64,000 nt of DNA, taken from IMG/VR virus record IMGVR_UViG_3300032893_000009, positions 54,882 to 118,881 of that record; one strand, 5' to 3'. A program made the position numbers and the translations under genes. Every line of letters starts with the position of its first letter. The first letter of the stretch is position 1. Below the pieces are notes generated by a model, which searched no databases, was not told the origin of the DNA, and was given only the letters and a program-made list of their open reading frames with translations. This DNA comes from a virus. Below, piece by piece: positions 19,399-58,426 of this stretch.

Positions 19399-22136
19399 AG
19401 CGCTGTCTATTAGGCTTACTCTTTACGTTGCTGCTGGCACTGCCAGCATCGGCCAGCTTGACGAACGTGTACATTGCCCAGTCGTCTGCTGGTAGCGCAG
19501 ATGGCACTTCATGTGCCAATGCTTACGCTGTGACGTTCTTCAATACTTCAGGCAACTGGGGAAGTGGCTCAAGTCAGATAGGCCCCGGTACTACGGTGCA
19601 TTTGTGTGGCACGTTCACTTTCTCTGCAGGAGCTACCGCCCTGACGTTCAACGGTAGCGGCACGAGTGGCAATCCCATTACGCTGTTGTGGGAATCCGGT
19701 GCTGTGCTGCAGGCCCCATACTTTTCTGCCGCGACCTTCGGCATCAACGGCAACGGGGCATCCTATGTCGTGATCAACGGCGGGACGAATGGTGTCATTC
19801 AGAACACCGCCAACGGCACGAGCCTCACCTACCAGCAGCAGAGCACGTACATCGGCGGCTTCGGCAGCAACTTTCAGGTCGAGAATCTATCCATGCCCAA
19901 CGTCTATGTTCACACCGCCAACGATGACGGGGGCGGGGGATCATGGGGCATCGAGATTCAGGGCCAGAGCAATGTGACCATCGGTCCGGGGAACAGCTTC
20001 TCCCAGTGCGACGTGTGCATTTTTGATGACTGGACCAACGCGAACAACTCCAACCTGACGATCTATAACAATAATTTCAGCCATGCCAATCAAGATATGG
20101 AGTTCGGCTTCTACCCTGCTGGCACATTTACCAACGTCTACATCTACGGCAACACGGCGGACACTTGGAACAACTGGGACACGGCGGACGACGCATTCCA
20201 TCACAACTTCGTTCACCTGTTCACGAACCTGTCCGGCGCGAGCATCACGGGCGACATCTGGATATACAACAACGTGGCCGTGGGCAATATCGGAGCCAAC
20301 GCCACCTCGATTGTCTATCTGGAGAACAACAACGGCGGGGCGGGCGGCAGCATCGGAACAAGCTACATCTTCAATAACGTATTCTCCAAGACGAACGCGA
20401 ATGTGCCCACCTCCACCGGCATCGTCTCCATGCTGGGCTTCAACGGCGGGTATATCCTGAACAACACCATCATCGACGCGGGCGGAACGGGCTCTAATGC
20501 ATACAACTGCATAAACATTTATCAGAACGGCTGGACGGTGAAGAACAACATCGAGCTGGGATGCGGCACCTACATATGGCAGCAGGGATCGGGCATCACG
20601 GCCTCGAACAACGACTACTACGGCGCATCGGTTCCGCAGTGGATTTACATCTCCTCCTACTACAGCGCGCTCAATTCATGGCAGTCCGGCTGCGGCTGCG
20701 ACGCATCATCGATTTCATCCAATCCCAATCTGAATGGAAGCTACGTGCCGGGATCAGGCTCGCCGGTTATCGGAGCTGGTGTAAACCTGTCGAGTCTGGG
20801 CATCACCCCGCTGGACAGCGACGCAGCGGGTAACGCGCGAGGGTCCGGCGCGTGGACCATGGGAGCGTACAACAGCAGTGGCGGTGGTCCCACCTACACC
20901 TTGACGGTGACCAACACCAACGGCAGCGTCTCCGGCACTAATTGTTCGACGGGCACATATGCTTCCGGCACCGGCATAGGAGCCTGCACTGCATCCCCGA
21001 ATTCCGGGTACACCTTCAGTGGCTGGAGTGGAACGGGATCGTGTTCCGGCGCATCTGGTACAGGCACGGCAAGCTGTACGCTGACCAGCAACTCGACTCT
21101 CACTGCGACGTTCGCACCGGTCGGTTCCTATAGCCTCACGGTCACGCACACCAACGGCACAGTCAGCGGCTCCAACTGCTCGACGGGCTCATACAGCTCA
21201 GGCACCAGCATCGGCGCGTGCTCTGCGTCGCCGAATAGCGGCTATACCTTTACGGGCTGGAGTGGAACGGGGTCATGTTCAGGCACATCGGGTACGGGAA
21301 CAGCATCGTGTACCTTGAACAGTAACTCGACGCTGACCGCGACGTTCACTGCCATCGGTTCCTACAGCCTCACGGTTACGAACGCCCACGGCAGCGTGAG
21401 CGGTACAGATTGCGCGACGGGAAGCTACAGTGCCGGGTCGGCCATCGGTGCCTGTACAGCATCACCAAACACCGGCTACACCTTCACGGGCTGGAGCGGT
21501 ACAGGCTCCTGCTCCGGTGCCTCGGGGACAGGCACGGCCTCGTGTACCTTAAACAGCAACTCGACGCTGACCGCGACATTTACGATCAACACCTACACTC
21601 TGACGGTGACCGCACTCGGTGGCAGTGTGAGCGGCACCAACTGCGCGACGGGGACATACAACTACTACACGGGCATCGGGCCTTGCACAGCCACGCCGGG
21701 CGGTGGCTACACCTTTACCGGCTGGAGTGGCACGGGCTCCTGCTCTGGCGCTTCAGGAACAGGCACCGCATCCTGTACGCTGACAGCGAACTCTACTCTG
21801 GTGGCGACGTTCAGTGGCGCTGCAGCGACACCCACATTCTCGCCCGGAGGAGGCAATTACTCCAGCACCCAGACCGTGACGATCTCGGATGCTACTCCCA
21901 GCTCCACGATCTACTACACCACGGACGGCAGCACGCCGACCACGGGCTCTTTTGTATATTCCACGCCCCTCAGTATCAGTGTCACTACGACAGTGAAGGC
22001 GATTGCCACGGCCAGCGGTTACTCGAACAGTGCCGTGGGCAGCGCGACGTACAACATTGGTCCTGCTCCGCCAACGAACTTCCGCGTGGTCGGGGCTATG
22101 AAGATCAAGGGGGGATTCAAGGTGGCTCCCCACTAG
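19395..22136 (+). CDS. exported beta-helix protein with four tandem ~78-aa repeats and a C-terminal Fn3-associated/chitobiase-C-like domain
   Basis: Signal peptide LALPASA; Asn-rich parallel beta-helix region; YTLTVT...GYTFSGWSG repeats; ATPTFSP...IYYTTDGSTPT...VKAIA. Confidence 0.8.
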   Translation: MKRCLLGLLFTLLLALPASASLTNVYIAQSSAGSADGTSCANAYAVTFFNTSGNWGSGSSQIGPGTTVHLCGTFTFSAGATALTFNGSGTSGNPITLLWESGAVLQAPYFSAATFGINGNGASYVVINGGTNGVIQNTANGTSLTYQQQSTYIGGFGSNFQVENLSMPNVYVHTANDDGGGGSWGIEIQGQSNVTIGPGNSFSQCDVCIFDDWTNANNSNLTIYNNNFSHANQDMEFGFYPAGTFTNVYIYGNTADTWNNWDTADDAFHHNFVHLFTNLSGASITGDIWIYNNVAVGNIGANATSIVYLENNNGGAGGSIGTSYIFNNVFSKTNANVPTSTGIVSMLGFNGGYILNNTIIDAGGTGSNAYNCINIYQNGWTVKNNIELGCGTYIWQQGSGITASNNDYYGASVPQWIYISSYYSALNSWQSGCGCDASSISSNPNLNGSYVPGSGSPVIGAGVNLSSLGITPLDSDAAGNARGSGAWTMGAYNSSGGGPTYTLTVTNTNGSVSGTNCSTGTYASGTGIGACTASPNSGYTFSGWSGTGSCSGASGTGTASCTLTSNSTLTATFAPVGSYSLTVTHTNGTVSGSNCSTGSYSSGTSIGACSASPNSGYTFTGWSGTGSCSGTSGTGTASCTLNSNSTLTATFTAIGSYSLTVTNAHGSVSGTDCATGSYSAGSAIGACTASPNTGYTFTGWSGTGSCSGASGTGTASCTLNSNSTLTATFTINTYTLTVTALGGSVSGTNCATGTYNYYTGIGPCTATPGGGYTFTGWSGTGSCSGASGTGTASCTLTANSTLVATFSGAAATPTFSPGGGNYSSTQTVTISDATPSSTIYYTTDGSTPTTGSFVYSTPLSISVTTTVKAIATASGYSNSAVGSATYNIGPAPPTNFRVVGAMKIKGGFKVAPH
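20895..21813 (+). repeat. four tandem 231-234-bp coding repeats (InlB B-repeat-like)
   Basis: Units start at 20895, 21129, 21363 and 21594; a fifth copy lies in the next gene near 23409-23630. Confidence 0.9.
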
Positions 22137-49080: not shown

Positions 49081-49564
49081 GGGCGCTATGTGGACGAAAT
49101 TGCCGAAGTGCGACGTGTGTGGCAAGACCAAGGGCGTGGGCAACAGGTGGCTGCTGGCGGTGCGCCATACCTCCATCAAGGAGTTTGGCCGCTGCCGTCT
49201 CGCGGTGTTCGACTGGAGCGACGCGCTGGCGGCCAAGCCGGGCGTGCTGCACATCTGCGGAGAGGGCTGCCTGTCCACTCTTTTCAGCCGTGCCATGGAG
49301 AACAGGACGAGCCCCAAGATTGTAGAGGTTAAAAATGTCTAAGATGAGTTTGAAAGAGGCACTGCAGCGACGTGCCCATTTGGTGGCCACATACGTGGAC
49401 CTGCAGCACACGCTGCTGAACGTGCGCCTCGCGCTGCGGGAGCTGCCCTTTGTGGGACACCTTCGTCCACAGGTGGTGATTGAGCTGTGCCGCCGCTGCG
49501 GCCAGCCTTTCAGCGCCCGGGATATTCGCAAGCACGAACCGCATTGCAAGGGGAAGCTAGTCAA

Positions 49565-50302
49565 ATGATTCTCGGTATACCCAGCGACGCAGCCTTGTGG
49601 GAAGTGGTGGGTGCGATACAGGTGTGCCAGTCAGCGGGCATCGCCGACGTGGAATACAACGGGGGTGACGAGAGCAGCCAGTTTCTGGAGCTGACCGGGC
49701 TGAAGCAGGCGGAATCGGGTACGGCTGAAAAGTGGCTCGATCTGGGCAGCGCCATGCGCCAGCTGGAGAAGGCCAAGGTGACCTACCCCGATCTGCTGGC
49801 CGATACCGTGGGTTTGAAGATTGGCGGGGGCAAGGCACCCCTGTTTCCCGGGCTGGAAACGGCCCAAGGCGAGGCCGGTGGCATCGTGGTGAGCCCTTAC
49901 CATGTCCACGACTCTTTCCGCCTCCCTTGGCAGATTTGGCGGGGTCTGATCAAGCACCTGCGCACCTACGGGCTCCCGGTACACCTGCTGGGCATGACCG
50001 GCGAGCGCGCCGACTATGCCAACTTCACCGAGGGCACCGTGCTGAGCAGCCTGCCGGTGGCCGACAAGCTGCGGGCGCTGGCGCAGGCCAAGCTGGTGGT
50101 GGGGGTGCCCAATGCTTGGACGTGGGCGGCTGCGGGCTACGGCAAGAAGGTGATCGTGCTCCATCCCGATGGCATCCCCCATGAGAGGTGGTTCGGCTTC
50201 GAGGTTCAGCCCCGTACTCTGGGGCGGCTGCTCTACGACGCGCAGCAGCTCCAGCCTGCCGTGATTCTGGCCGGGATGCGCAAGCTGATCTCGATTATGT
50301 GA
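49565..50302 (+). CDS. glycosyltransferase family 9-like protein
   Basis: VVSPY, LPWQIWRGLI and LAQAKLVVGVPNAWTWAAAGYGKKVIVL. Confidence 0.6.
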   Translation: MILGIPSDAALWEVVGAIQVCQSAGIADVEYNGGDESSQFLELTGLKQAESGTAEKWLDLGSAMRQLEKAKVTYPDLLADTVGLKIGGGKAPLFPGLETAQGEAGGIVVSPYHVHDSFRLPWQIWRGLIKHLRTYGLPVHLLGMTGERADYANFTEGTVLSSLPVADKLRALAQAKLVVGVPNAWTWAAAGYGKKVIVLHPDGIPHERWFGFEVQPRTLGRLLYDAQQLQPAVILAGMRKLISIM

Positions 50303-51274: not shown

Positions 51275-51455
51275 GAAGCGAGATCGAGTGCCGGGAGTGC
51301 GGCAAGGTGATCGGCGAGCATGTGACGTACCCGTTGACCTGCAACGGACAGGACCCGCCGGAGGACATCTACTTCCATGAGGAAGCGGTGGTGTTCGACG
51401 AGGCGGGCAATCCGTTTTGCAGCCCCGAGTGTCAGATTGAGTATTGGATTAGAAG

Positions 51456-51839
51456 ATGAGACAGGGAGAGAACCGTATGACGAATGAAGAGAGGCTGGCA
51501 GAACAGGTAAGGGTGATGCGCAAGGCTCTGATCGAGATTGAACGTTGCAATGCTTGGAACCCCGCTGACGGGTCCCTGAAACGCTGCGAGAACATGGCCC
51601 GTATAGCGAGGGAGGCTTTTGACAAAGTGCATGTGTTGGACAGATACGGAGAAAACTGTATGACCCCGGAACAGAAAGCTGAAATCGACGCGATGAGCCA
51701 GTATGACCTCTGCCGCATGTGGCGGTTTGCCCCGGTAGGGGAGCCGCTTTTGCGGGGTGATACCGGTGATTATTTCGCCAAGCGCTTGGAGGAGCTGGGC
51801 GGCTTTACGCCGGAGATCAGCAAGCGTCTGGGCTGGTAA
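51456..51839 (+). CDS. hypothetical protein
   Basis: WRFAPVGEPLL...GGFTPEISKRLGW. Confidence 0.6.
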   Translation: MRQGENRMTNEERLAEQVRVMRKALIEIERCNAWNPADGSLKRCENMARIAREAFDKVHVLDRYGENCMTPEQKAEIDAMSQYDLCRMWRFAPVGEPLLRGDTGDYFAKRLEELGGFTPEISKRLGW

Positions 51840-51843
51840 GCAA

Positions 51844-51867
51844 GACGCAGGGCATTTTGACTACAAT
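51844..51867 (+). promoter_or_regulatory. putative promoter of the Tas-TIGR operon (GACGCA-N12-TACAAT)
   Basis: Intergenic; followed by a GAGGAGG RBS and the ATG at 51894. Confidence 0.6.
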
Positions 51868-51893
51868 GCAATTGAGGTGAGGAGGAACATCGT

Positions 51894-52823
51894 ATGAGCA
51901 CCACGCAGAATCTAGAGGCTCTTCTGGAGCCAGTGAAGCGCATGAGCAAGGACTTGGCCGAGGGTGCCAAGACCCTGACCGTGCGCGAGGCGCGCTACTT
52001 GGTAGACGCTTATTACATCATGCAGGAAAACCGCATCCGTTCGGCAGCGCAGGTTCGCACCCTGCGGGAGAACGGCGAACCGCACGCCGTGATCGAGTAT
52101 CTGGCAGCGCAGGACGAGTTGCTGGAGCAGCAGATCAAGCGAGCGTTGGACAAGTGGACGGACGGATCGCACATGGGACGCTGGCTGAAGGCCATTACAG
52201 GCATCGGCCCGGTGATCGCTGCTGGTCTGCTGGCCCATATCGACATGCAGCCGTGGACCTGCGGGCTTCATGCCGTGGACCGGAAGGTCAAGTCCTGCAC
52301 CGAGAAGGAGCCGCATCCGGGTCCGCAGTGCGGGCACAAGCGCATCGAGACGGTGGGCCATATCTGGAGCTTCGCCGGTCTGGACCCCTCGATCACCTGG
52401 GGCAAGGGTGAGCGCCGCCCCTACAATGCGCAGCTCAAGACCATCTGCGCCTTCAAGCTGGGCGAGTGCTTTGTGAAGACGCAGAATCTGGACACCGGCT
52501 ACTACGGCAAAATCTACGCCACGCGCAAGGCCGAGTATCAGGCGCGCAACGAGCGTGGGGAATATGCCGAGGTCGCCAAGAGGGCGCTGGAGAGCAAGAA
52601 CTACAGCAAGGACACGGACGCCTACAAGGCCTACTCCGCTGGCAAGCTGCCGCCCGCGCACATCCATGCCATGGCCCGGCGCTTCGCGGTGAAGATTTTC
52701 CTCTCCGCGTTCCACGCCGAATACTACCGGACGCTGTTCCACGAGGAACCGCCCAAGCCTTATGCGCTGGCCATTCTGGGTCACGCGCATGACCTCAACA
52801 TGCCCGGGATCGATGTAGAATGA
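51894..52823 (+). CDS. tasA: IS110/Nop-domain RNA-binding protein without a nuclease domain (TasA-like)
   Basis: N-terminal coiled coil, WLKAITGIGPVIAAGLLAHID, IWSFAGLDP, YNAQLK and HIHAMARRFAVKIFL resemble the IS110 C-terminal/Nop domain; no DEDD RuvC or HNH domain; abuts a 36-nt dual-repeat array. Confidence 0.82.
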   Translation: MSTTQNLEALLEPVKRMSKDLAEGAKTLTVREARYLVDAYYIMQENRIRSAAQVRTLRENGEPHAVIEYLAAQDELLEQQIKRALDKWTDGSHMGRWLKAITGIGPVIAAGLLAHIDMQPWTCGLHAVDRKVKSCTEKEPHPGPQCGHKRIETVGHIWSFAGLDPSITWGKGERRPYNAQLKTICAFKLGECFVKTQNLDTGYYGKIYATRKAEYQARNERGEYAEVAKRALESKNYSKDTDAYKAYSAGKLPPAHIHAMARRFAVKIFLSAFHAEYYRTLFHEEPPKPYALAILGHAHDLNMPGIDVE

Positions 52824-52837
52824 TCCCGGGTACCACC

Positions 52838-53700
52838 CATCACCGTTCCAGACAGCATCATGGAAGCTGAGTGAGCCAAAAGTACGACAGCATCAAGCAC
52901 GCGCAGTGAGTCAAACATCGCGTTAGCATCACGTGATCCGAGCGAATCACTGGGGACGACGGCAACCAAGCAGCCGCGTGAGTCAGGAGGACCGACAGTA
53001 TCACTGTATGAGAGCGAGTCAAATGAAGGGACAGCAGCATGAATCGAGAGCGAGCCATCGATCTTGACGGGGCCATTAATTGGGAGCGAGCCAACTAGAG
53101 GGAAAGCAGCATCTATTGGGAGCGAGCCAAGTTGCTTGCTAGTATCAGGCCAAACGAGCGAGCCACTGAACGCGACGACATCAGGGACTAAGAGTGAGTC
53201 AAGGCAAAAGACGGAAACGGTGGTGGGAGCGAACCACGAGTGCCGACTGTTTCAAAAGGCGAGAGTGAGCCACGAGGGAAGACAGAAGCAAGCTACCTGT
53301 GCGAACCACGAGGTACGAGGGTGCCATTGGGTGCGAGTGAACCACGTGAAGTGACAGGACCGAGGAGTTCGTGTGAACCATGCAAGACGACCGGAGCACA
53401 GAACTTGAGTGAGCCAAGGAAAAGGACAGGGGCAAGTGACTAGTGCGAGCCAAGGTGTTCGACAGGGAACATACGCGGAGAGCGAGTCAAGATGGGCGAC
53501 AGGATCAGCGAAACAGAGCGAGCCATGACGAGCGACGGGATCAAACAATGAGAGTGCGCCATGGAGTGTGATGGGATCAGGTGAACGGGGCGAGCCATAA
53601 GGATTGACAGCATCAGCGGAGATGAGCGAACCAGTTGAGGGGAAGGCTTCAACGATTCTGTGTGAGCCATGTAATGAGACGGCATCAAGATACCAGAGCG
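52838..53700 (+). ncRNA. TIGR-like tandem interspaced guide RNA array, 24 units of 36 nt
   Basis: Alternating GAGYGARYCA (edge) and GACRGNANCA (loop) repeats separated by unique ~8-nt segments; 863 nt for 24 units; begins and ends with half edge repeats. Confidence 0.9.
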
Positions 53701-53701
53701 C

Positions 53702-53736
53702 AACGCCGTGGGCCTCGGTTCACGGCGTTCCTGTTT
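53702..53736 (+). terminator. terminator hairpin closing the array
   Basis: AACGCCGTGGGCC-TC-GGTTCACGGCGTT followed by CCTGTTT. Confidence 0.65.
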
Positions 53737-53786
53737 CCGGCCAGTTTGCTGTTGTTGCAGGCCTGTGTGCTGCCTACGATTGAGGC

Positions 53787-56700
53787 ATGCTCGCCTTACT
53801 GCGCAGGCTACATCTCGCGTTTCAGGCTTGGACCATCAATCGCCTTCGCATCCGGCAGGCGGTGAAGGCTTATTTATCGCTGCATGCGCAGGAGTTGTCC
53901 GTCACCCCGCTGCAGAATCTGCCGCTGGTCCGGGCTCAGCAAGCAGCGGAAATTCGCTTGGTCAAGGCAGGCAAGCTGGACTCCATTGTGGACCGCAAGA
54001 GCTGGGCATTCCCCTATCTCCCTAGCTCGGTACAGCGTCTCAGCATGCCGGTGGCCAAGTCCACCCCCTACAACCTCCGGCGCTTCTCCCGCACCCCGGT
54101 GGCGAGACGGGCCATCAACCTGATCAAGAACTCGGTCACCGCGCAGGCGTGGGACGTGCGCCCTATAGAGGGCGTGCCGGTTGAGGATGAGGAAGAGCAG
54201 AAGGCGCGCATCAAGGTGGCCAAGAAGATTTTCACCCATCCCAACAATGTGGACTCCAACCAGAGCTGGGTGGAGATGGGCGTCGAGGATATGTGCATCA
54301 TGGGAGTGTTCGCCTCCGAGATCAAGCTGACGCTCGATCCCGAGCGCCCGGTGAAGCTCTGGGCCATGGACGCGAGCACGGTGCGCATCTTCGTGAGCTG
54401 GAGTGAATCGACCACCGACCTGCCCCACTACGCGCAGATGACCGGCCTGCAGGGCGAGCGCGGCGCGATCCTCTTCTACGACGACGAGATCATGTACATC
54501 AAGGACAACCCCGCCACCGACAACCCGTTCGGACTGGGCAAGCTGGAGGTGGCCTTTCAGCAGCTCAACGACCTGCTGGGCGTGCAGCGCATGGCGGGCA
54601 TGGCGGGAGCCGATCAGGTTCATAAGTGCTTCCCCGGCGACACCGAGGTGCTGACGCGGCGCGGTTGGATTCCTTGGCGGGATGTGGGGGATGCCGAGGA
54701 GTTCGCCACGCGCAGTTCGGACGGCAAATTGCAGTGGCAGCGCGCCCTTGGTTTTGTGCGGGAGCAGCACGACGGGGACTTGATCCGGTTCCGCAACCGG
54801 GAGCTGACCATCACCGTGACCCCCAATCACCGGATGTACGGGCAGCGTTTCACTAAGGACTGGAGGACCGGGAAGCAGATAGCGGGGCCAGCTGGATTTG
54901 TCGAAGCCCGCGAGCTGCTCGATGAGGTAGCCCGTCGGCCCGGTAAGGGCTGGCGCGGGCGTGCGAAGCACGCACCGTCGCTTTACGACTTCAGGATTCC
55001 CACGCGGACCGAGTGGACGGACGGTGTTCTGCCCGCCCCGGTTTGCCGTATTGGGGCGAGAACCTTTGCTTGGGAGGACTGGGCGGCATTCCTCGGGATA
55101 TGGTTTGCCGAGGGATCGTGCATGAGGTCAAACGGCGCGGATAAGCCGCGTCACGGGGAGTACCGTGTACAGATTGCGCAGTCGCTGAAGACTAACCCCG
55201 CGAAGTATGCCAAAATCAAGCGTCTGCTCAAGCGCATGGGCTTCTCTTATGTTGCGAAACCCGACCGCTTCCTTTTCAGCGATCGCGACGTGTGGGCGTA
55301 TCTGGTTGGGTTGGGCGACAGCCTTACCAAGTCCGTGCCGCAGTGGCTCAAGGATGCACCGACGCCGGTTATCCGTGCATTTTTCGACTGGGCGATGCTG
55401 GGCGACGGCACTGTTCGCGGGCGCAAAAGAACTTACTACACGGCTAGCAAGCGCCTTGCCGACGACATGCAGGAGCTGTTTCAGAAGATCGGCTCCAGCG
55501 CCGCTGTACAGCCCTACATCGACGGTAAGAGCCAGATGTATGCCGTTGAGGAGATGCTGCGGTCTGACATCAGCATCATTCCGGCTGGTTGCCGTGGGAA
55601 GGAGCGCATGCCACAGCGGATTCCGTACAGCGGTATGGTGTACTGCGCGACGGTTCCCAACGGCACGTTGTATTGCCGTGAAAATGGCTATGCGTTCTGG
55701 TCGGGCAACACGTGGCTGTGGTGGGAGCAGCCGCAGTGCTTCTCTGACGACACCGACGTTCTCACCAAGCGTGGCTGGATCAAATGGGAGGATGCCCGCG
55801 AGGATGATCTGTTCGCCACGCGCAACGCGCACGGAGTTTTTGAGTGGCAGCGTGCCTCTCGTTTGTATCGTAAGCGCTATGTCGGCGATATGATCGAGTT
55901 CAACAACCGGAATCTTAGCGTCTGCGTTACGCCCAATCATCGGATGTACGGACGCTTTGCTTATCAATACAGACAGGGTGGCAAGTATCAGTTGGACTTC
56001 ACGCCGGAGGGGCTGGTGCAGGCTGACGATATTTGTGCCCGTGTCGTGGCACGCCCCGGTAAGGGTCGGCGCAAGGGTGATTCGACTAAGGCTCCGTCTC
56101 GCACGCCGTTCGACTTCCGTATTCCCGTCCGTTCCGAGTGGGTTGGTTCATTGCCATCCGCGACGTTTAATTTGGGGGCACACCAATTCGACTGGCACGA
56201 CTGGGCGGCCTTCCTTGGCATCTGGGTGGCCGAGGGATGGTCTAGCGGGTCTACTGTAGAACCCGCAGGGCGTGTGTATTGTCGCGTCGGCATTGCCCAG
56301 TCGAAGAGTGCCCATCCTGATGTTTACCGGGACATCGAAGGGCTCTTGCAGAAAATGGGGCTGCGTTTCGCAAAGACTGATCGCGGCTTTACTATCGATG
56401 ATGAGGATTTGTGGACGCACCTTTCTCCTTTGGGGAACAAGTATTCCAAGTATGTGCCGGGCTACATGAAGAATGCTCCGGTGTCTGTCATCCGCACGTT
56501 CATCGATTGGGCTGTTAAGGGTGACGGCTGGAGCACCCATGGGGAGGGACGGCGGCGCGGCTACTTCACGGTAAGCAGGCGTCTTGCCGACGACATGCAG
56601 GAGCTGTTTCAGAAGTCTGGTACTGCGGCCTCGATTTACGAACGGCCAGCCGGGTATATGAAGCTCCCCGGTGGCAGGTGCAGCCTGTGTGAGCGGGGCT

Positions 56701-58040
56701 ACACTCTGCAGGAATTGGACGACGCTGAAGTGAGTCTCATCCCCGGCATAACACGTCCGGGGCGTAACAACGGCATCCCGCGTCATGTTGCTTACGATGG
56801 CGTGGTCTACTGTGCCACAGTTCCTAACCACACTCTGTATTGCCGCAGGAACGGCAGGCCATTCTGGAGCGGTAATTCAGACGCGGCCTACCAGATTGTC
56901 CGGCGGCACATTCAGAACGAGCTGGAGGGACAGGCCAAGGTATCGATCATCGGCGGCATGAAGAAGCCCGAGGTGATCGAGGTGAATCCGGTGATGGAGG
57001 CCGACCTGCTTCTGAACTGGCAGGAGATGCTGATCCGTATGGTGGCCAACGCCTTCGACATGACGGCCATGGCACTGGGTGTCGAGCACGACGTGAACCG
57101 CGCCGTGGGCGAAGTGCTCAAGGATCAGGATTTCCGTTCCGCCGTGGTGCCTATGGCCAAGCGGCTGCAGGAGGGATTTACCCGCAAGATTCTCCACGAG
57201 GCGCTGGGCTGGGTCGATCTGGAATTCGCCTACCTGCAGCTGGACGATCCCGATCTTGAAACCAAGACGGACATGAATGCCAAGATGTATTCGGCCAACG
57301 CCCTCACTCCCAACGAGTGGCGCAAGAGCGTGGGCAAGCAGCCGCTGAAGACCCCGTTTGCCGACATGACCCAGTTCGAGGCCATGATGCTCAACCAAGA
57401 GCTGATGGCGCAGCTGCAGAACCGGGCACAGGAGCAGCAGCAGGCCCAGCAGCAGCCCGCCATGCCTGCCGCGCCCGGTATGCCGCCCGCGATGCCCGGA
57501 GGGCCGGGAAGGGGCGCTGGCGGGGCCAGCAGCTATGCTCCACGCATCTCGCAGGGCCAGATTTCCCGGGGCGGACAGATCATGTCGCCGAAGCCCATGG
57601 CGCTGCCCAAGTTCCCCATTGCCGGGTCGAAGTGGAACGCCCGGGAGATCGCCAAGATGCCGGTCAACGATCTGGCCGACCGTATTGACGGCGGACAGCT
57701 GCCGGAGCCGCAGAAGCTGCTGCCGCAGATGGAGCAGCAGGAGCCCAATATCCTCGATCAGATGAACGACGAGGTGAAGGAGTATTTCAAGCATGTGCTG
57801 CAGGAGGACGAGGATGAAAAGAACGAGGCCACGCCTGATGAATATCTGCAGATGTGGCTGAAAAAGCTGCGCAAGCGGGCGAAGAAGCGTGATGCGCGTT
57901 CCGATGATATGACAGAATATCTGCAGAACGTGAATCAGAAGTGGCGCATGGCGCAGCCCTCGAAGCCCGGTGCCAAGACCTATCGCGCGGTGAAGAATCC
58001 CGGCAAACCCGGCACCCCACCGGCAGCAAGGAGTTTGTGA
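53787..58040 (+). CDS. phage portal protein with two inteins (676 aa after splicing)
   Basis: LRRFSRTP, HPNN, LWAMDASTVR, DEIMYIKDNP...FGLGKLE, ANAFDM...LG and LTPNEWRKSVGKQPL portal motifs. Confidence 0.88.
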   Translation: MLALLRRLHLAFQAWTINRLRIRQAVKAYLSLHAQELSVTPLQNLPLVRAQQAAEIRLVKAGKLDSIVDRKSWAFPYLPSSVQRLSMPVAKSTPYNLRRFSRTPVARRAINLIKNSVTAQAWDVRPIEGVPVEDEEEQKARIKVAKKIFTHPNNVDSNQSWVEMGVEDMCIMGVFASEIKLTLDPERPVKLWAMDASTVRIFVSWSESTTDLPHYAQMTGLQGERGAILFYDDEIMYIKDNPATDNPFGLGKLEVAFQQLNDLLGVQRMAGMAGADQVHKCFPGDTEVLTRRGWIPWRDVGDAEEFATRSSDGKLQWQRALGFVREQHDGDLIRFRNRELTITVTPNHRMYGQRFTKDWRTGKQIAGPAGFVEARELLDEVARRPGKGWRGRAKHAPSLYDFRIPTRTEWTDGVLPAPVCRIGARTFAWEDWAAFLGIWFAEGSCMRSNGADKPRHGEYRVQIAQSLKTNPAKYAKIKRLLKRMGFSYVAKPDRFLFSDRDVWAYLVGLGDSLTKSVPQWLKDAPTPVIRAFFDWAMLGDGTVRGRKRTYYTASKRLADDMQELFQKIGSSAAVQPYIDGKSQMYAVEEMLRSDISIIPAGCRGKERMPQRIPYSGMVYCATVPNGTLYCRENGYAFWSGNTWLWWEQPQCFSDDTDVLTKRGWIKWEDAREDDLFATRNAHGVFEWQRASRLYRKRYVGDMIEFNNRNLSVCVTPNHRMYGRFAYQYRQGGKYQLDFTPEGLVQADDICARVVARPGKGRRKGDSTKAPSRTPFDFRIPVRSEWVGSLPSATFNLGAHQFDWHDWAAFLGIWVAEGWSSGSTVEPAGRVYCRVGIAQSKSAHPDVYRDIEGLLQKMGLRFAKTDRGFTIDDEDLWTHLSPLGNKYSKYVPGYMKNAPVSVIRTFIDWAVKGDGWSTHGEGRRRGYFTVSRRLADDMQELFQKSGTAASIYERPAGYMKLPGGRCSLCERGYTLQELDDAEVSLIPGITRPGRNNGIPRHVAYDGVVYCATVPNHTLYCRRNGRPFWSGNSDAAYQIVRRHIQNELEGQAKVSIIGGMKKPEVIEVNPVMEADLLLNWQEMLIRMVANAFDMTAMALGVEHDVNRAVGEVLKDQDFRSAVVPMAKRLQEGFTRKILHEALGWVDLEFAYLQLDDPDLETKTDMNAKMYSANALTPNEWRKSVGKQPLKTPFADMTQFEAMMLNQELMAQLQNRAQEQQQAQQQPAMPAAPGMPPAMPGGPGRGAGGASSYAPRISQGQISRGGQIMSPKPMALPKFPIAGSKWNAREIAKMPVNDLADRIDGGQLPEPQKLLPQMEQQEPNILDQMNDEVKEYFKHVLQEDEDEKNEATPDEYLQMWLKKLRKRAKKRDARSDDMTEYLQNVNQKWRMAQPSKPGAKTYRAVKNPGKPGTPPAARSL
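54627..55709 (+). mobile_element. portal intein 1 (361 aa) with LAGLIDADG-type endonuclease
   Basis: CFPGDTEVLT, VTPNHRM, FLGIWFAEG, AMLGDG, VYCATVPNG...WSGN followed by Thr. Confidence 0.92.
55737..56876 (+). mobile_element. portal intein 2 (380 aa) with LAGLIDADG-type endonuclease
   Basis: CFSDDTDVLT, VTPNHRM, FLGIWVAEG, AVKGDG, VYCATVPNH...WSGN followed by Ser. Confidence 0.92.
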
Positions 58041-58426
58041 TGGAACTCAAGGATATTTCAGGCAACACTGTCGAGATTCTTCCCGACTCTCGCGCCCGTG
58101 AAGCCAAGGACGTAAAGCAGATGTCCGTCCCCAACATCGGGATGGTTCACTGGGTTCCCATTTTCTGTGCGAACTGTGGTACAGCCGGGGGGCGCGTGCC
58201 GGAAGAGAATTGCACATTCGCCTTTTACTTATGCAACAATTGTGTGGAGAAGTGGGGGGCGGTGGCAGGTACATACGCCGTTCCCGACGATGTATTCTGG
58301 GCAAACGTGCGTCGAGAACAGCAGGAGAAATATGGACGGCAGCTTCTTCCTTTAGAGCTTGAGGAAGTGCTGAAGCACGAGAACAACAGCCTGACCAAGC
58401 TAGTGCAAGAGCGGGTCACCGCGTAA
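58040..58426 (+). CDS. zinc-binding hypothetical protein
   Basis: AAGGAG RBS; CANC...CNNC. Confidence 0.65.
   Translation: MELKDISGNTVEILPDSRAREAKDVKQMSVPNIGMVHWVPIFCANCGTAGGRVPEENCTFAFYLCNNCVEKWGAVAGTYAVPDDVFWANVRREQQEKYGRQLLPLELEEVLKHENNSLTKLVQERVTA

What the first reader, a model, noticed from the sequence alone, without database searches (positions are those of the whole stretch)
51844..53736. RNA-guided system: nuclease-less Nop/IS110-domain protein plus a 24-unit, 36-nt dual-spacer array (TIGR-Tas, TasA-type)
Seen: 15 nt after the stop of a 309-aa gene, an 863-nt non-coding stretch parses as [edge repeat GAGYG|ARYCA]-[~8 variable nt]-[loop repeat GACRGNANCA]-[~8 variable nt] with a 36-nt period, 24 times (e.g. 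GAGCGAGCCA-TCGATCTT-GACGGGGCCA-TTAATTGG-GAGCGAGCCA-ACTAGAGG-GAAAGCAGCA-TCTATTGG). It starts with a half repeat (CATCA, 52838), ends with the other half (GAGCG, 53700) and is closed by a terminator, with one promoter-like motif upstream of the gene. The protein has the GIGP helix-hairpin and FAGL motifs of the IS110 C-terminal/Nop RNA-binding domain but no RuvC or HNH domain. Established: this matches TIGR-Tas systems, where ~36-nt tigRNAs with two short spacers guide Tas dimers to both strands of a DNA target without a PAM, and the nuclease-less class is TasA. Inference: the phage makes about 24 different guides for programmable DNA binding without cutting, for example repression or interference with competing elements. 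It is not CRISPR (no long repeat, no cas genes) and not an IS (no catalytic domain).
Basis: partly seen in the sequence, partly recalled or inferred. Interest (0 to 1): 0.95.

Follow-up and report, generated by a model that had tools for sequence, protein, structure and literature searches.

The report
Phage TIGR-TasA guide RNA system
A complete 119-kb wetland phage carries a typical TIGR-TasA system: a nuclease-less RNA-guided DNA-binding protein followed by an array for 24 short dual-spacer guide RNAs, a correctly identified new member of a family described in 2025.

Summary

- **Protein.** Gene 51894-52823 (309 aa) passes NCBI's curated TIGR-Tas model (NF052498.1, 180 bits against a cut-off of 100). 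It folds like the solved TasH and TasR proteins (Z 18.4 and 17.3). Only about 30 residues precede the coiled coil, so it has no HNH or RuvC domain and is TasA-type.
- **Array.** It spans 52833-53705 and holds 24 units: 21 of 36 nt, 2 of 35 nt, 1 of 37 nt. Each unit reads edge GAGYGARYCA, 8 nt, loop GACRGNNNCA, 8 nt. The array starts and ends with half edge repeats.
- **Covariation.** The halves of neighbouring edge repeats that would close one 36-nt tigRNA pair in 24 of 24 units (p = 3.5e-4).
- **Relatives.** 70 of 80 related phage loci carry 36-nt arrays with near-identical repeats.
- **Targets.** Natural targets remain unknown. No site with at most 1 mismatch in the published geometry was found in the phage's own genome, in 126 held loci, or in five related phage records.
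- **Small extras.**
  - A Cys3-His insertion that looks zinc-binding, absent from the solved Tas proteins.
  - A phage-specific promoter-like motif upstream of the gene.
  - The module is missing from a closer relative.

Another note of this scan (e1-6147396) covers the same stretch. Verdict: a new member of a known kind, of modest interest.

The parts
51844..51867 (+). Promoter-like motif GACGCA-N12-TACAAT, 27 nt upstream of the tasA start codon
   Evidence: Pattern GACGCA-N12-TANNNT: 4 matches in the window, all on the + strand, expected 0.30, 0 of 100 shuffles reach 4. No sigma-70 consensus site in 51400-54000. The function is inferred.
51880..51885 (+). Ribosome-binding site AGGAGG, 8 nt before the ATG
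   Evidence: Read directly from the sequence.
51894..52823 (+). tasA: 309-aa nuclease-less TIGR-associated Nop-domain protein (coiled coil plus Nop domain)
   Evidence: NCBIfam NF052498.1 TIGR_Tas_endo, E 4.8e-53, 180.3 bits against cut-off 100. AlphaFold2 model pLDDT 89.2. Foldseek top 10 PDB hits are all TasR or TasH. VIA-align Z 18.4 to TasH 9vzx_B and 17.3 to TasR 9mty_B. Pfam gives only a sub-threshold Transposase_20 hit and no HNH or RuvC.
52242..52343 (+). Codons 117-150: Cys-rich insertion (P120-W121, C123, C135, P140-H141, C146), a putative zinc-binding mini-domain after the GIGP helix-hairpin-helix
   Evidence: Present in 19 of 34 aligned homologues, with C135 and C146 invariant among them. 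78 of 207 homologues with both flanking motifs have the long form, and 59 of those 78 fit PW-x-C...C...P-[HC]...C. TaTasR and SpTasH have only a few residues here (alignments). Model pLDDT is 93-96 in this stretch. Zinc binding is inferred.
52761..52784 (+). Codons Y290-H297: candidate tyrosine/histidine dyad for self-processing of the pre-tigRNA, in the flexible C-terminal loop
   Evidence: The Y-x6-H spacing is the same as SpTasH Y289/H296 (PMC13421893, passages read). H297 is kept in 34 of 34 homologues. Y290 is Y in 25 of 34 and F in 9 of 34. The model is low-confidence at 291-300. The equivalence is inferred, not aligned residue by residue.
52833..53705 (+). Dual-repeat TIGR array of 24 units: edge GAGYGARYCA, spacer A (8 nt), loop GACRGNNNCA, spacer B (8 nt). 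It has a 5' half edge at 52838-52842 and a 3' half edge at 53696-53700
   Evidence: All 24 spacer pairs differ. Pairing between neighbouring edge halves is 24 of 24, 24 of 24 and 23 of 24. There is no Rfam family here.
53702..53729 (+). 12-bp GC-rich hairpin closing the array, with a weak U tract (CCUGUUUCC)
   Evidence: Fold (z -2.35; 2 of 200 shuffles fold as well). Not listed by the terminator scan.

Best explanation
This is a dual-repeat TIGR-TasA system carried as an accessory module by a complete 118,881-bp phage with direct terminal repeats. It sits just upstream of the portal gene.

Likely sequence of events; steps 1 to 5 are inferred unless a call is cited:
1. tasA and the array are transcribed together, probably from the phage-type promoter-like motif at 51844, up to the hairpin at 53702-53729.
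2. TasA is a coiled coil plus a Nop domain. It dimerises and binds each unit through the GA (box D-like) and YCA (box C-like) ends that the edge and loop repeats share.
3. The transcript is cut inside each edge repeat, probably by the C-terminal Y290/H297 loop of TasA itself. This yields up to 24 tigRNAs of 36 nt: 5'-ARYCA, spacer A, GACRGNNNCA, spacer B, GAGYG-3'.
4. The two ends of each tigRNA close with a three-pair mini-stem (R7:Y4, Y8:G3, C9:G1). This pairing is shown here by covariation between neighbouring repeats.
5. Each guide directs the dimer to a 16-bp site, where spacer A pairs with one DNA strand and spacer B with the other strand next to it (top strand = A + reverse complement of B). 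With no nuclease domain, the outcome is binding and bending of DNA, most plausibly a block to transcription or replication of a target that is still unknown.
For: Family membership of the protein:
- NCBIfam TIGR_Tas_endo, 180.3 bits against a cut-off of 100.
- Profile of 34 homologues against PDB sequences: TaTasR 9mty_A E 3.1e-16, TasH E 2.7e-6, IS621 E 2.2e-3.
- Foldseek top 10 are all Tas structures, E 1.7e-6 to 1.3e-5.
- VIA-align: TasH 9vzx_B Z 18.4 (225 residues aligned, rmsd 3.5, model 27-308 on chain 65-309); TasR 9mty_B Z 17.3 (193 aligned, rmsd 2.6, model 31-307 on chain 112-322); IS621 Z 12.5.
- The nuclease parts of TasH (before residue 65) and TasR (before residue 112) have no counterpart here.

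Array:
- 24 units with a 36-nt period.
- Half edge repeats at both ends.
- Both repeats start with G and end with CA: loop G1 in 24 of 24 and C9 in 23 of 24; edge G1 in 22 of 23 and C9/A10 in 23 of 23.
- R7 of edge i pairs with Y4 of edge i+1 in 24 of 24 units (7 A:T, 3 G:T, 14 G:C). The same positions within one repeat pair in 19 of 24, and at other offsets in 18 of 22 to 21 of 23. Exact permutation p = 3.5e-4.
- This pairing is the one Faure et al. describe for processed tigRNAs (PMC12045711, section 8 and the Fig. 6G legend, read).

Family association:
- 70 of 80 related viral loci have 36 nt as their best period (at least 0.40 identity), next to the gene.
- Their consensus repeats on the tasA strand are GAGCGAGCCA with GAGAGAACCA-type partners and 8-nt gaps.
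- Variants GATCGAGACA and GAACGAGTCA keep the 3:8 pair through changes on both sides.

Mechanism from the literature (sections read):
- 36-nt tigRNAs bound by TasA, TasR and TasH, and tandem-spacer targeting of both strands (PMC12045711, sections 5-8).
- Self-processing by SpTasH Y289/H296 (PMC13421893, passages).
- TasA acting as an RNA-guided repressor (preprint 10.64898/2026.09.09.750476, section 12).
Against: - There is no RNA evidence for this locus. No listed sequencing run is on record as RNA, so expression and processing are untested.
- The promoter is not a sigma-70 consensus, and the terminator has a weak U tract.
- Four of 24 loop repeats lack the final CA in the 10-nt parse (units 4, 11, 15, 18). 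Two of these can be rescued as 11-nt loops. Some guides may therefore be defective.
- The tyrosine of the proposed processing dyad is phenylalanine in 9 of 34 homologues, so the dyad may not be the general mechanism in this subfamily.
- The repression experiments used stem-loop TasA proteins, not dual-repeat ones.
- No plausible target was found, so the biological role is open.
Confidence: 0.88

Rival explanations
1. It is a genuine TIGR-Tas locus, but TasA is not a stand-alone binder. It would recruit a separate effector in trans (a nuclease, integrase or partition protein) or aid DNA bending for recombination, so the outcome would not be simple repression.
For: - Faure et al. raise these possibilities for TasA: ParB-like partners and help for integrases through the 180-degree bend (PMC12045711, section 10, read).
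- The Cys3-His insertion could be a protein or nucleic-acid contact surface.
Against: - No ParB-like or nuclease gene lies beside tasA. The five upstream ORFs have no significant family hit (only two far-sub-threshold Pfam matches for one of them), and the downstream gene is the portal.
- Other TasA proteins repress on their own in E. coli (Xu et al., section 12).
Confidence: 0.08
2. It is a decaying relic: the gene and array are recognisable but no longer functional.
For: - Loop repeats are degenerate: 4 of 24 lack the terminal CA, and three units are 35 or 37 nt.
- No targets were found.
- The module is absent from the closer relative G002.
Against: - The ORF is intact, and all 38 columns invariant in the 34-sequence family alignment are by definition kept here.
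- The edge-to-edge pairing is maintained in 24 of 24 units despite sequence change, which implies selection on the RNA.
- All 24 spacer pairs are distinct.
Confidence: 0.03
3. It is an IS110-family element remnant: a truncated RNA-guided recombinase with leftover bridge-RNA-like repeats.
For: - Weak Pfam Transposase_20 hit (E 0.012, below cut-off).
- PHROG 4285, labelled 'transposase', at E 3.9e-45.
- IS621 and ISCro4 are the next-best folds (Z 12.2-12.5).
Against: - The NCBIfam IS110 model scores 21.8 bits against a cut-off of 140, while the TIGR-Tas model scores 180.3 against 100.
- The Tas structures score clearly higher (Z 17-18).
- There is no DEDD domain.
- A 24-unit regular array is not an IS110 feature.
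- The same arrangement recurs beside homologues.
Confidence: 0.005
4. The 36-nt repeat (12 codons) is a translated repeat on the minus strand.
For: One minus-strand frame has only 1 stop in 291 codons (longest open stretch 150 codons). The ORF listing gives minus-strand ORFs of up to 98 aa.
Against: - The units of 35, 35 and 37 nt shift the repeat phase within that frame, so no constant peptide repeat results.
- There is no start codon for most of the open stretch.
- Neighbouring genes are all on the + strand.
- The plus strand of the spacers is purine-rich (62%), which lowers the stop frequency on the opposite strand.
- Strand-specific RNA pairing covariation fits the + strand.
Confidence: 0.005

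Closest known systems
FpTIGR-TasA of Flavonifractor plautii, the dual-repeat TasA of Faure et al. 2025 (PMC12045711)
   Same: - A solo Nop-domain protein with a downstream dual-repeat array.
- A 36-nt unit.
- Binds 36-nt tigRNAs that start and end in the middle of edge repeats (sections 4 and 5 read).
   Different: - FpTIGR has 9-nt spacers (18 nt in all); this array has 8-nt spacers (16 nt) and 10-nt repeats.
- I did not compare the sequences, because no FpTasA sequence was available from a tool.
- This protein has a Cys3-His insertion, which the papers' main texts do not mention.
SpTasH of Salicola phage CGphi29 (PDB 9w03, 9w04, 9vzx, 21kl)
   Same: - Best structural match: Z 18.4 over model residues 27-308.
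- Phage-borne, with a dual-repeat array and 8-nt spacers giving 8-bp heteroduplexes (PMC12045711, section 6; preprint 10.64898/2026.08.11.744272, section 5).
- A C-terminal Tyr-x6-His pair, Y289/H296 there and Y290/H297 here.
   Different: - SpTasH has an N-terminal HNH nuclease (before about residue 65) and cuts DNA; this protein has no such domain.
- Sequence identity is only 16-17%.
- SpTasH has no Cys-rich insertion after the helix-hairpin-helix.
TaTasR (PDB 9mty)
   Same: - Closest solved protein by sequence: profile E 3.1e-16, 25% identity over 193 aligned residues, Z 17.3.
- A coiled-coil dimer plus Nop domain.
- Box C/D-like ends on both repeats, with an extra covarying pair in the edge repeat.
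   Different: - TasR has an N-terminal RuvC domain (residues 1 to about 111).
- It uses 9-nt spacers.
- Its boxes are UG/CCA, against GA/YCA here.
- It has W in place of the tyrosine (KPW).
Stem-loop TasA proteins (MbTasA, PlTasA, BlTasA)
   Same: They are nuclease-less Tas proteins. They have been shown to bind target DNA and to repress transcription in an RNA-guided way (Xu et al., section 12; Guan et al., section 5).
   Different: - Their guides are stem-loop tigRNAs of variable length.
- They lack the C-terminal Y/H loop (Xu et al., section 10).
- This locus is the dual-repeat type.
IS110-family bridge-RNA recombinases (IS621, ISCro4) and box C/D snoRNP Nop5
   Same: - They share the Nop-type RNA-binding fold and a two-part guide logic.
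- IS621 scores Z 12.5.
   Different: - IS110 enzymes carry DEDD and Tnp catalytic domains and a single bridge RNA.
- Nop5 recruits fibrillarin and L7Ae.
- Neither has a regular 36-nt array.

Membership tests
TIGR-Tas system | Tas protein with the family's Nop domain (curated sequence model) | tested here: met
   NF052498.1 TIGR_Tas_endo (equivalog), E 4.8e-53, 180.3 bits against cut-off 100, residues 33-276 on profile positions 1-213 of 215.
TIGR-Tas system | Coiled-coil plus Nop fold like the solved Tas proteins | tested here: met
   Model pLDDT 89.2, pTM 0.84. Foldseek top 10 are all Tas. Z 16.8-18.4 to TasH and TasR, against 12.2-12.5 for IS110 enzymes and at most 9.7 for the rest.
TIGR-Tas system | Homodimer through the coiled coil | not testable with these tools
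   The long helices 30-59 and 65-90 align with the coiled coils of TasH and TasR. The oligomeric state itself was not established here.
TIGR-Tas system (dual-repeat type) | Adjacent array of two alternating 8-12-nt repeats separated by short spacers, with a 36-nt unit | tested here: met
   24 units of 10+8+10+8 nt, starting 10 nt after the tasA stop codon.
TIGR-Tas system (dual-repeat type) | [quoted passage not shown] | tested here: met
   CATCA at 52838-52842 and GAGCG at 53696-53700. A hairpin lies at 53702-53729, but its U tract is weak and the scan did not list it.
TIGR-Tas system (dual-repeat type) | Box D-like start and box C-like end shared by edge and loop repeats, with a Watson-Crick pair between them and extra covarying pairs in the edge only | tested here: met
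   Both repeats read GA...CA. G1:C9 pairs in 23 of 24 units for both edge and loop. The edge-only pairs Y8:G3 and R7:Y4 hold in 24 of 24 each. The loop equivalents hold in 6 of 24 and 1 of 24. Permutation p = 3.5e-4.
TIGR-Tas system | The array is processed into 36-nt tigRNAs bound by the Tas protein | not testable with these tools
   No RNA data were available for this locus (one search lists no holder on record as RNA).
TIGR-Tas system | Tandem-spacer recognition of both DNA strands | not testable with these tools
   This needs binding assays. No natural target was found to test it in silico.
TasA class (nuclease-less) | No HNH or RuvC domain fused to the Nop domain | tested here: met
   Only about 26-30 residues precede the part that aligns with TasH residue 65 and TasR residue 112. 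Pfam finds no nuclease domain at E up to 10. The protein is 309 aa.
Dual-repeat Tas self-processing | Conserved Tyr/His dyad on an extended C-terminal loop | tested here: inconclusive
   Y290 and H297 have the same spacing as SpTasH Y289/H296. H297 is kept in 34 of 34 homologues, but the Tyr position is F in 9 of 34. No residue-level alignment to SpTasH reached this loop, and the model is low-confidence there.
IS110-family RNA-guided transposase | Full-length match to the family model, including the DEDD catalytic domain | tested here: not met
   NF033542.1 scores 21.8 bits against a cut-off of 140, and only residues 63-116 match. Pfam Transposase_20 scores 16.4 bits against 21.3.
CRISPR-Cas | A single 25-36-nt repeat with spacers of similar size, and cas genes | tested here: not met
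   The array has two alternating 10-nt repeats and 8-nt spacers. PADLOC finds nothing for the protein. Neighbours have no Cas-like families.

The most novel reading that the evidence does not exclude
Two linked ideas remain open.

1. Dual-repeat TasA proteins that carry the PW-C...C...P-H/C...C insertion may form a distinct zinc-knuckle subclass, in which the insertion takes part in strand separation or target choice.
2. In this lineage the array may be a vertically kept regulator that grows by duplication of whole cut-to-cut units. Its targets would be host genes used for takeover, rather than rival phages.

The second idea would explain why neither the phage itself nor five relatives carry matching sites.
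Probability: 0.15. Interest if true: 0.5.

Novelty: new member of a known kind. Interest (0 to 1): 0.3.

Why it matters
For the scan, this is a clean positive control. A reader without tools recognised a TIGR-TasA system from raw sequence and described its grammar correctly.

For the field the increment is small but usable:
- **Complete genome context.** This is a complete phage genome with direct terminal repeats and a long array of 24 guides. The authors of the family say that natural targets are hard to find because most loci sit on fragments (Xu et al., section 13). Here self-targeting could be tested and was not found.
- **Selection on the RNA.** The neighbour-to-neighbour covariation inside a single array is direct evidence that selection acts on the processed 36-nt RNA.
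- **A variable module.** The module is missing from a relative that shares 65 of 126 ORFs. It is present in the same place, before the portal gene, in a far more distant relative.
- **Zinc-like insertion.** The Cys3-His insertion found in about a third of homologues is a testable structural variant.

Tried and rejected
**Target searches**
- Self-targeting. The 24 guide pairs were searched against the phage's own 118,881 bp with the array masked. Four arrangements and gaps of 0-2 bp were tried. The published geometry A + rc(B) gave 0 sites with at most 1 mismatch. With no gap it gave 2 sites with 2 mismatches and 28 with 3 mismatches; the control arrangements gave 20, 44 and 31 with 3 mismatches. 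There is no enrichment.
- The same search over 126 held loci (868,001 bp) gave 0 sites with at most 1 mismatch and 12 with 2 mismatches, against 15-23 in the controls.
- The same search over five related phage records (G001-G005, 294,792 bp) gave 0 sites with at most 1 mismatch in the right geometry.
- Reverse test. 1,310 candidate guide pairs were parsed from arrays in 99 other loci and searched against this genome. There were 2 exact 16-mers in the X + rc(Y) arrangement, where 0.08 were expected under random re-pairing, and 0 in the three control arrangements. One of the two (from L007/L019) pairs a spacer B with the next unit's spacer A if GATCGAGACA is that array's edge repeat, so it is in the wrong register. 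The other (from L107) comes from a very degenerate array whose register I could not fix. I do not count these as targets.

**Ideas that did not hold**
- Purine-rich spacers as a family trait. Spacers here are 62% purine, against 53% for the genome's + strand. Across 73 arrays the mean is 0.545, against 0.541 for their loci. Rejected.
- Neighbouring spacers being related. Spacer A at lag 1 shares 2.78 identical positions, against 2.26 expected (p 0.02). Spacer B is not significant (p 0.15), and spacer A against spacer B shows no relation. This is weak.
- Coding repeat: see the rivals.

**Searches that gave nothing**
- Related loci by DNA polymerase: 3 pattern matches, none confirmed.
- blastn of the locus against the phage record collection: no match.
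- Rfam at E up to 1: no family.
- PADLOC: nothing.
- Sigma-70 promoter scan: none.
- Tandem Repeats Finder missed the array.
- Complex prediction on two copies of TasA returned 'no answer' (scores 0.04, 0.50, 0.01; controls not run). This is neither for nor against dimerisation.
- The look-up of sequencing runs listed no RNA holder. Three DNA runs of wetland metagenomes hold the stretch, and one may be its source.
- Read laying showed only Logan contigs, with no differences from the window over the parts covered. It says nothing on expression or on array variation.

**Literature limits**
- 'zinc' occurs 0 times in the main texts of Faure 2025, Xu 2026 and PMC13421893.
- A library search for tigRNA + zinc gave 5 papers, of which 4 were listed. 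I saw only their titles and abstract starts, and none is about Tas structure.
I therefore cannot tell whether this contig is among the 20,096 published tas loci, or whether the insertion appears in their supplementary figures.


Full report

Yes. Laying the sequence from 52838 in rows of 36 nt puts the repeats in register by eye. Self-identity of the stretch is 0.506 at lag 36, 0.474 at lag 72 and 0.398 at lag 18, against a mean of 0.27. The flanking coding DNA gives 0.29-0.30 at lag 36.

Anchoring on the repeats gives 24 units between 52833 and 53705: 21 of 36 nt, two of 35 nt and one of 37 nt. Each unit reads edge repeat GAGYGARYCA, 8 variable nt, loop repeat GACRGNNNCA, 8 variable nt. Repeat columns carry 1.0-2.0 bits and spacer columns 0.1-0.5 bits.

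The array opens with the 3' half of an edge repeat (CATCA, 52838-52842) and closes with the 5' half (GAGCG, 53696-53700). All 24 spacer pairs differ. All 19 strict edge-repeat matches in the 118,881-bp genome lie in the array. Tandem Repeats Finder missed it, which fits the published remark that standard repeat tools fail on these arrays.

**2. The protein**

- Pfam sees only a sub-threshold IS110 C-terminal hit on the GIGP helix-hairpin-helix.
- PHROGs places it in family 4285, labelled 'transposase'.
- NCBI's curated model NF052498.1, 'TIGR-Tas system RNA-guided endonuclease', matches residues 33-276 at 180.3 bits against a cut-off of 100. The IS110 model reaches 21.8 bits against 140.
- A profile of 34 homologues finds TaTasR (9mty) at E 3.1e-16 and TasH at 2.7e-6 among PDB sequences.
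- The AlphaFold2 model (pLDDT 89.2) has only Tas structures in its ten best Foldseek matches.
- VIA-align gives Z 18.4 to TasH (model 27-308 on chain 65-309), Z 17.3 to TasR (31-307 on 112-322), Z 12.2-12.5 to IS621 and ISCro4, and at most 9.7 for everything else.

The HNH part of TasH and the RuvC part of TasR have no counterpart here, so the protein is a coiled coil plus Nop domain. That makes it TasA in the nomenclature of Faure et al. 2025 (PMC12045711, section 4 read).

The family is large. 5,050 of 7,308 candidate proteins score E ≤ 0.001 in one search, and 2,166 clusters at 50% identity do so in the other. The nearest relative is 63% identical.

**3. RNA-level evidence inside the array**

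In the published model the transcript is cut in the middle of each edge repeat. A mature tigRNA therefore carries the 3' half of one edge repeat at its 5' end and the 5' half of the next edge repeat at its 3' end, and these halves pair (PMC12045711, section 8 and Fig. 6G legend).

I counted those pairs.
- Position 9 of edge i with position 1 of edge i+1 pairs in 23 of 24 units.
- Position 8 with position 3 pairs in 24 of 24 (17 C:G, 7 U:G).
- Position 7 with position 4 pairs in 24 of 24 (14 G:C, 7 A:U, 3 G:U).

For the last pair, the same two positions within one repeat pair in only 19 of 24 units, and at other offsets in 18 of 22 to 21 of 23. The chance that a random order avoids every A:C clash is 3.5e-4. 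The loop repeat keeps only the G1:C9 pair (23 of 24); its other positions pair in 6 of 24 and 1 of 24.

This is what the tigRNA model predicts, and it argues that the + strand RNA is under selection. Across loci, the edge variants GATCGAGACA and GAACGAGTCA keep the 3:8 pair through changes on both sides. However, only 9 distinct fully resolved repeat pairs could be tabulated, and 7 of them had exactly one repeat with both pairs.

**4. Association in relatives**

Of 80 viral loci encoding relatives (45-60% identity), 70 have 36 nt as their best period between 28 and 49 nt, with at least 0.40 identity, next to the gene. Of the 10 that fail, 8 have another best lag and 2 are below 0.40.

Their consensus repeats, read on the tasA strand, are GAGCGAGCCA alternating with GAGAGAACCA-, GACAG...CA- or GATCGAGACA-type repeats with 8-nt gaps. 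Relatives also occur in 46 loci of bacterial genomes and MAGs. Many of these are Acidobacteriota, but Proteobacteria, Firmicutes, Chloroflexota and others appear too.

**5. Context**

- The window is positions 54882-118881 of a 118,881-bp virus record with direct terminal repeats, rated 100% complete.
- All long ORFs near the locus are on the + strand.
- The five ORFs upstream have no significant family hit; one has only two far-sub-threshold Pfam matches.
- The next gene downstream (53787-58040) is a portal protein interrupted by intein-like insertions.
- No ParB-like gene is present.

Comparison with relatives:
- G002 is 91% complete. 65 of 126 ORFs have hits at a mean identity of 56%. It has no Tas homologue at all. 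It places about 2 kb of other DNA between the homologue of the 271-aa upstream ORF (49487-50302) and the portal.
- G005 is complete with terminal repeats. 33 of 126 ORFs have hits at a mean identity of 39%. It has tasA, an array and the portal in the same order, with TasA 46% and portal 47% identical.

The module is therefore variable. The similar divergence of TasA and portal fits inheritance with loss in the G002 line, but independent insertion at the same spot is not excluded.

**6. Expression signals**

- No sigma-70 consensus promoter was found.
- Following a lead from another note of this scan, I tested GACGCA-N12-TANNNT. There are 4 matches in the window, all on the + strand, against 0.30 expected, and 0 of 100 shuffles reach 4. 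One lies at 51844-51867, 27 nt before the tasA start.
- An AGGAGG sits 8 nt before the ATG.
- A 12-bp hairpin closes the array, but it has a weak U tract.
- The array starts 10 nt after the stop codon, so co-transcription with tasA is the simplest reading. This is inferred.

**7. Targets**

The reported 3' overhangs fix the geometry (PMC12045711, section 7). Working through both possible orders, only 'top strand = spacer A + reverse complement of spacer B' gives 3' overhangs.

With this geometry there is no site with at most 1 mismatch in the phage's own genome, in 868,001 bp of held loci, or in five related phage records. Counts at 2-3 mismatches do not exceed the control arrangements. Sites of 16 nt are too short for open searches of large collections, where tens to hundreds of chance hits per guide are expected. 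The authors of the family say the same (Xu et al., section 13).

The reverse test gave two exact hits against 0.08 expected, but at least one is in the wrong register.

**8. How it most likely works**

*Shown here:*
- family and fold of the protein
- absence of a nuclease domain
- array grammar
- half repeats at both ends
- pairing covariation
- recurrence of the array type beside homologues

*Taken from published work on other members:*
- A dimer binds one 36-nt tigRNA.
- The edge and loop repeats bind the two protomers through box C- and box D-like ends.
- The two spacers pair with opposite strands of adjacent half-sites, and the DNA is unwound and bent.
- SpTasH cuts its own precursor with Y289/H296.
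- TasA proteins repress transcription.

*Inferred for this locus:*
- co-transcription from the 51844 motif
- cutting between positions 5 and 6 of each edge repeat by the Y290/H297 loop
- up to 24 guides, of which about 20 have canonical loop ends
- binding without cleavage to 16-bp sites

H297 is kept in 34 of 34 homologues. Y290 is Y in 25 and F in 9.

**9. What differs from the described members**

- The grammar is 10+8+10+8, as in the SpTasH type, rather than the 9-nt spacers of FpTasA and TaTasR.
- The boxes read GA/YCA rather than UG/CCA.
- The loop repeat is unusually loose.
- A 30-residue insertion follows the helix-hairpin-helix, with PW-x-C123, C135, P-H141 and C146.
  - It is present in 78 of 207 homologues that have both flanking motifs. 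59 of those 78 fit the pattern, and the third ligand switches between H and C.
  - TaTasR and SpTasH have only a few residues at this point.
  - From the order of segments in the Fig. 2 legend of Xu et al., this may be their 'wedge insertion' position. That mapping is my inference.
  - Zinc binding is also inferred.

**10. Verdict**

The locus is a correct call of a known kind: a new member, not a new system. The curated NCBI name 'endonuclease' and the PHROG label 'transposase' would both mislead for this nuclease-less protein.

Noticed in passing
window 52242-52343 (TasA residues 117-150): Cys3-His insertion PW-x-C...C...P-H/C...C after the GIGP helix-hairpin-helix. It occurs in 78 of 207 homologues that have both flanking motifs, and 59 of those 78 fit the pattern. 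It is absent from TaTasR and SpTasH. It is probably a zinc knuckle. The word 'zinc' does not occur in the main texts of three TIGR papers.
   Followed up: partly
window 9872, 12495, 46609, 51844 (+ strand): Motif GACGCA-N12-TANNNT occurs 4 times against 0.30 expected, at or near gene junctions. One copy precedes tasA. Another (9872) precedes the region that a separate note of this scan reads as a Y RNA-like array with a Ro60 gene. It is a possible phage-specific promoter.
   Followed up: partly
window 53787-58040: The portal gene of 1,417 aa matches the Pfam portal model only at residues 1031-1180 (best stretch), with a LAGLIDADG domain at 529-585. Residues of about 281-642 and 644-1031 hit the same regions of relatives, so there appear to be two related intein-like insertions. 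The relatives L131-L134 carry different numbers of them.
   Followed up: partly
G002 (L132, L138-L143) and G005 (L022, L148-L154): G002 is a 91%-complete relative in which 65 of 126 ORFs have hits; it has no Tas homologue. G005 is a far more distant complete relative (33 of 126 ORFs with hits); it has tasA, the array and the portal in the same order. The TIGR module is therefore variable within this phage group.
   Followed up: yes
window 21207-21222 (- strand) and 58288-58303 (+ strand): Exact 16-nt matches to spacer pairs from the arrays of other phages or MAGs: L007/L019 and L107. That is 2 hits against 0.08 expected, and none in the control arrangements. One appears to be in the wrong register, and the other comes from a degenerate array. 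Probably chance.
   Followed up: partly
window 52833-53705: Spacers are 62% purine on the + strand, against 53% for the genome's + strand. One minus-strand frame has a single stop in 291 codons. The purine bias is not shared by 73 related arrays (mean 0.545 against 0.541).
   Followed up: yes
window 53227-53334 and 53012-53119: Neighbouring units share spacer starts: spacer A of units 12-14 reads CGAGTGCC, CGAGGGAA, CGAGGTAC, and spacer B of units 6-8 reads TGAATCGA, TTAATTGG, TCTATTGG. For spacer A at lag 1, similarity is 2.78 against 2.26 (p 0.02). This hints at growth by unit duplication and divergence.
   Followed up: partly
TasA family annotation: PHROG 4285 labels this family 'transposase', and NCBIfam NF052498.1 names it 'RNA-guided endonuclease'. 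Both are misleading for a member without a nuclease domain.
   Followed up: no
whole genome G000: Most large proteins of this phage have no PHROG match: 4 of the 9 largest tested had none. Of the remaining 5, only the DNA polymerase gave a clear functional label. The phage is far from characterised ones, and its host is unknown. The closest bacterial relatives of its TasA are in Acidobacteriota MAGs.
   Followed up: partly
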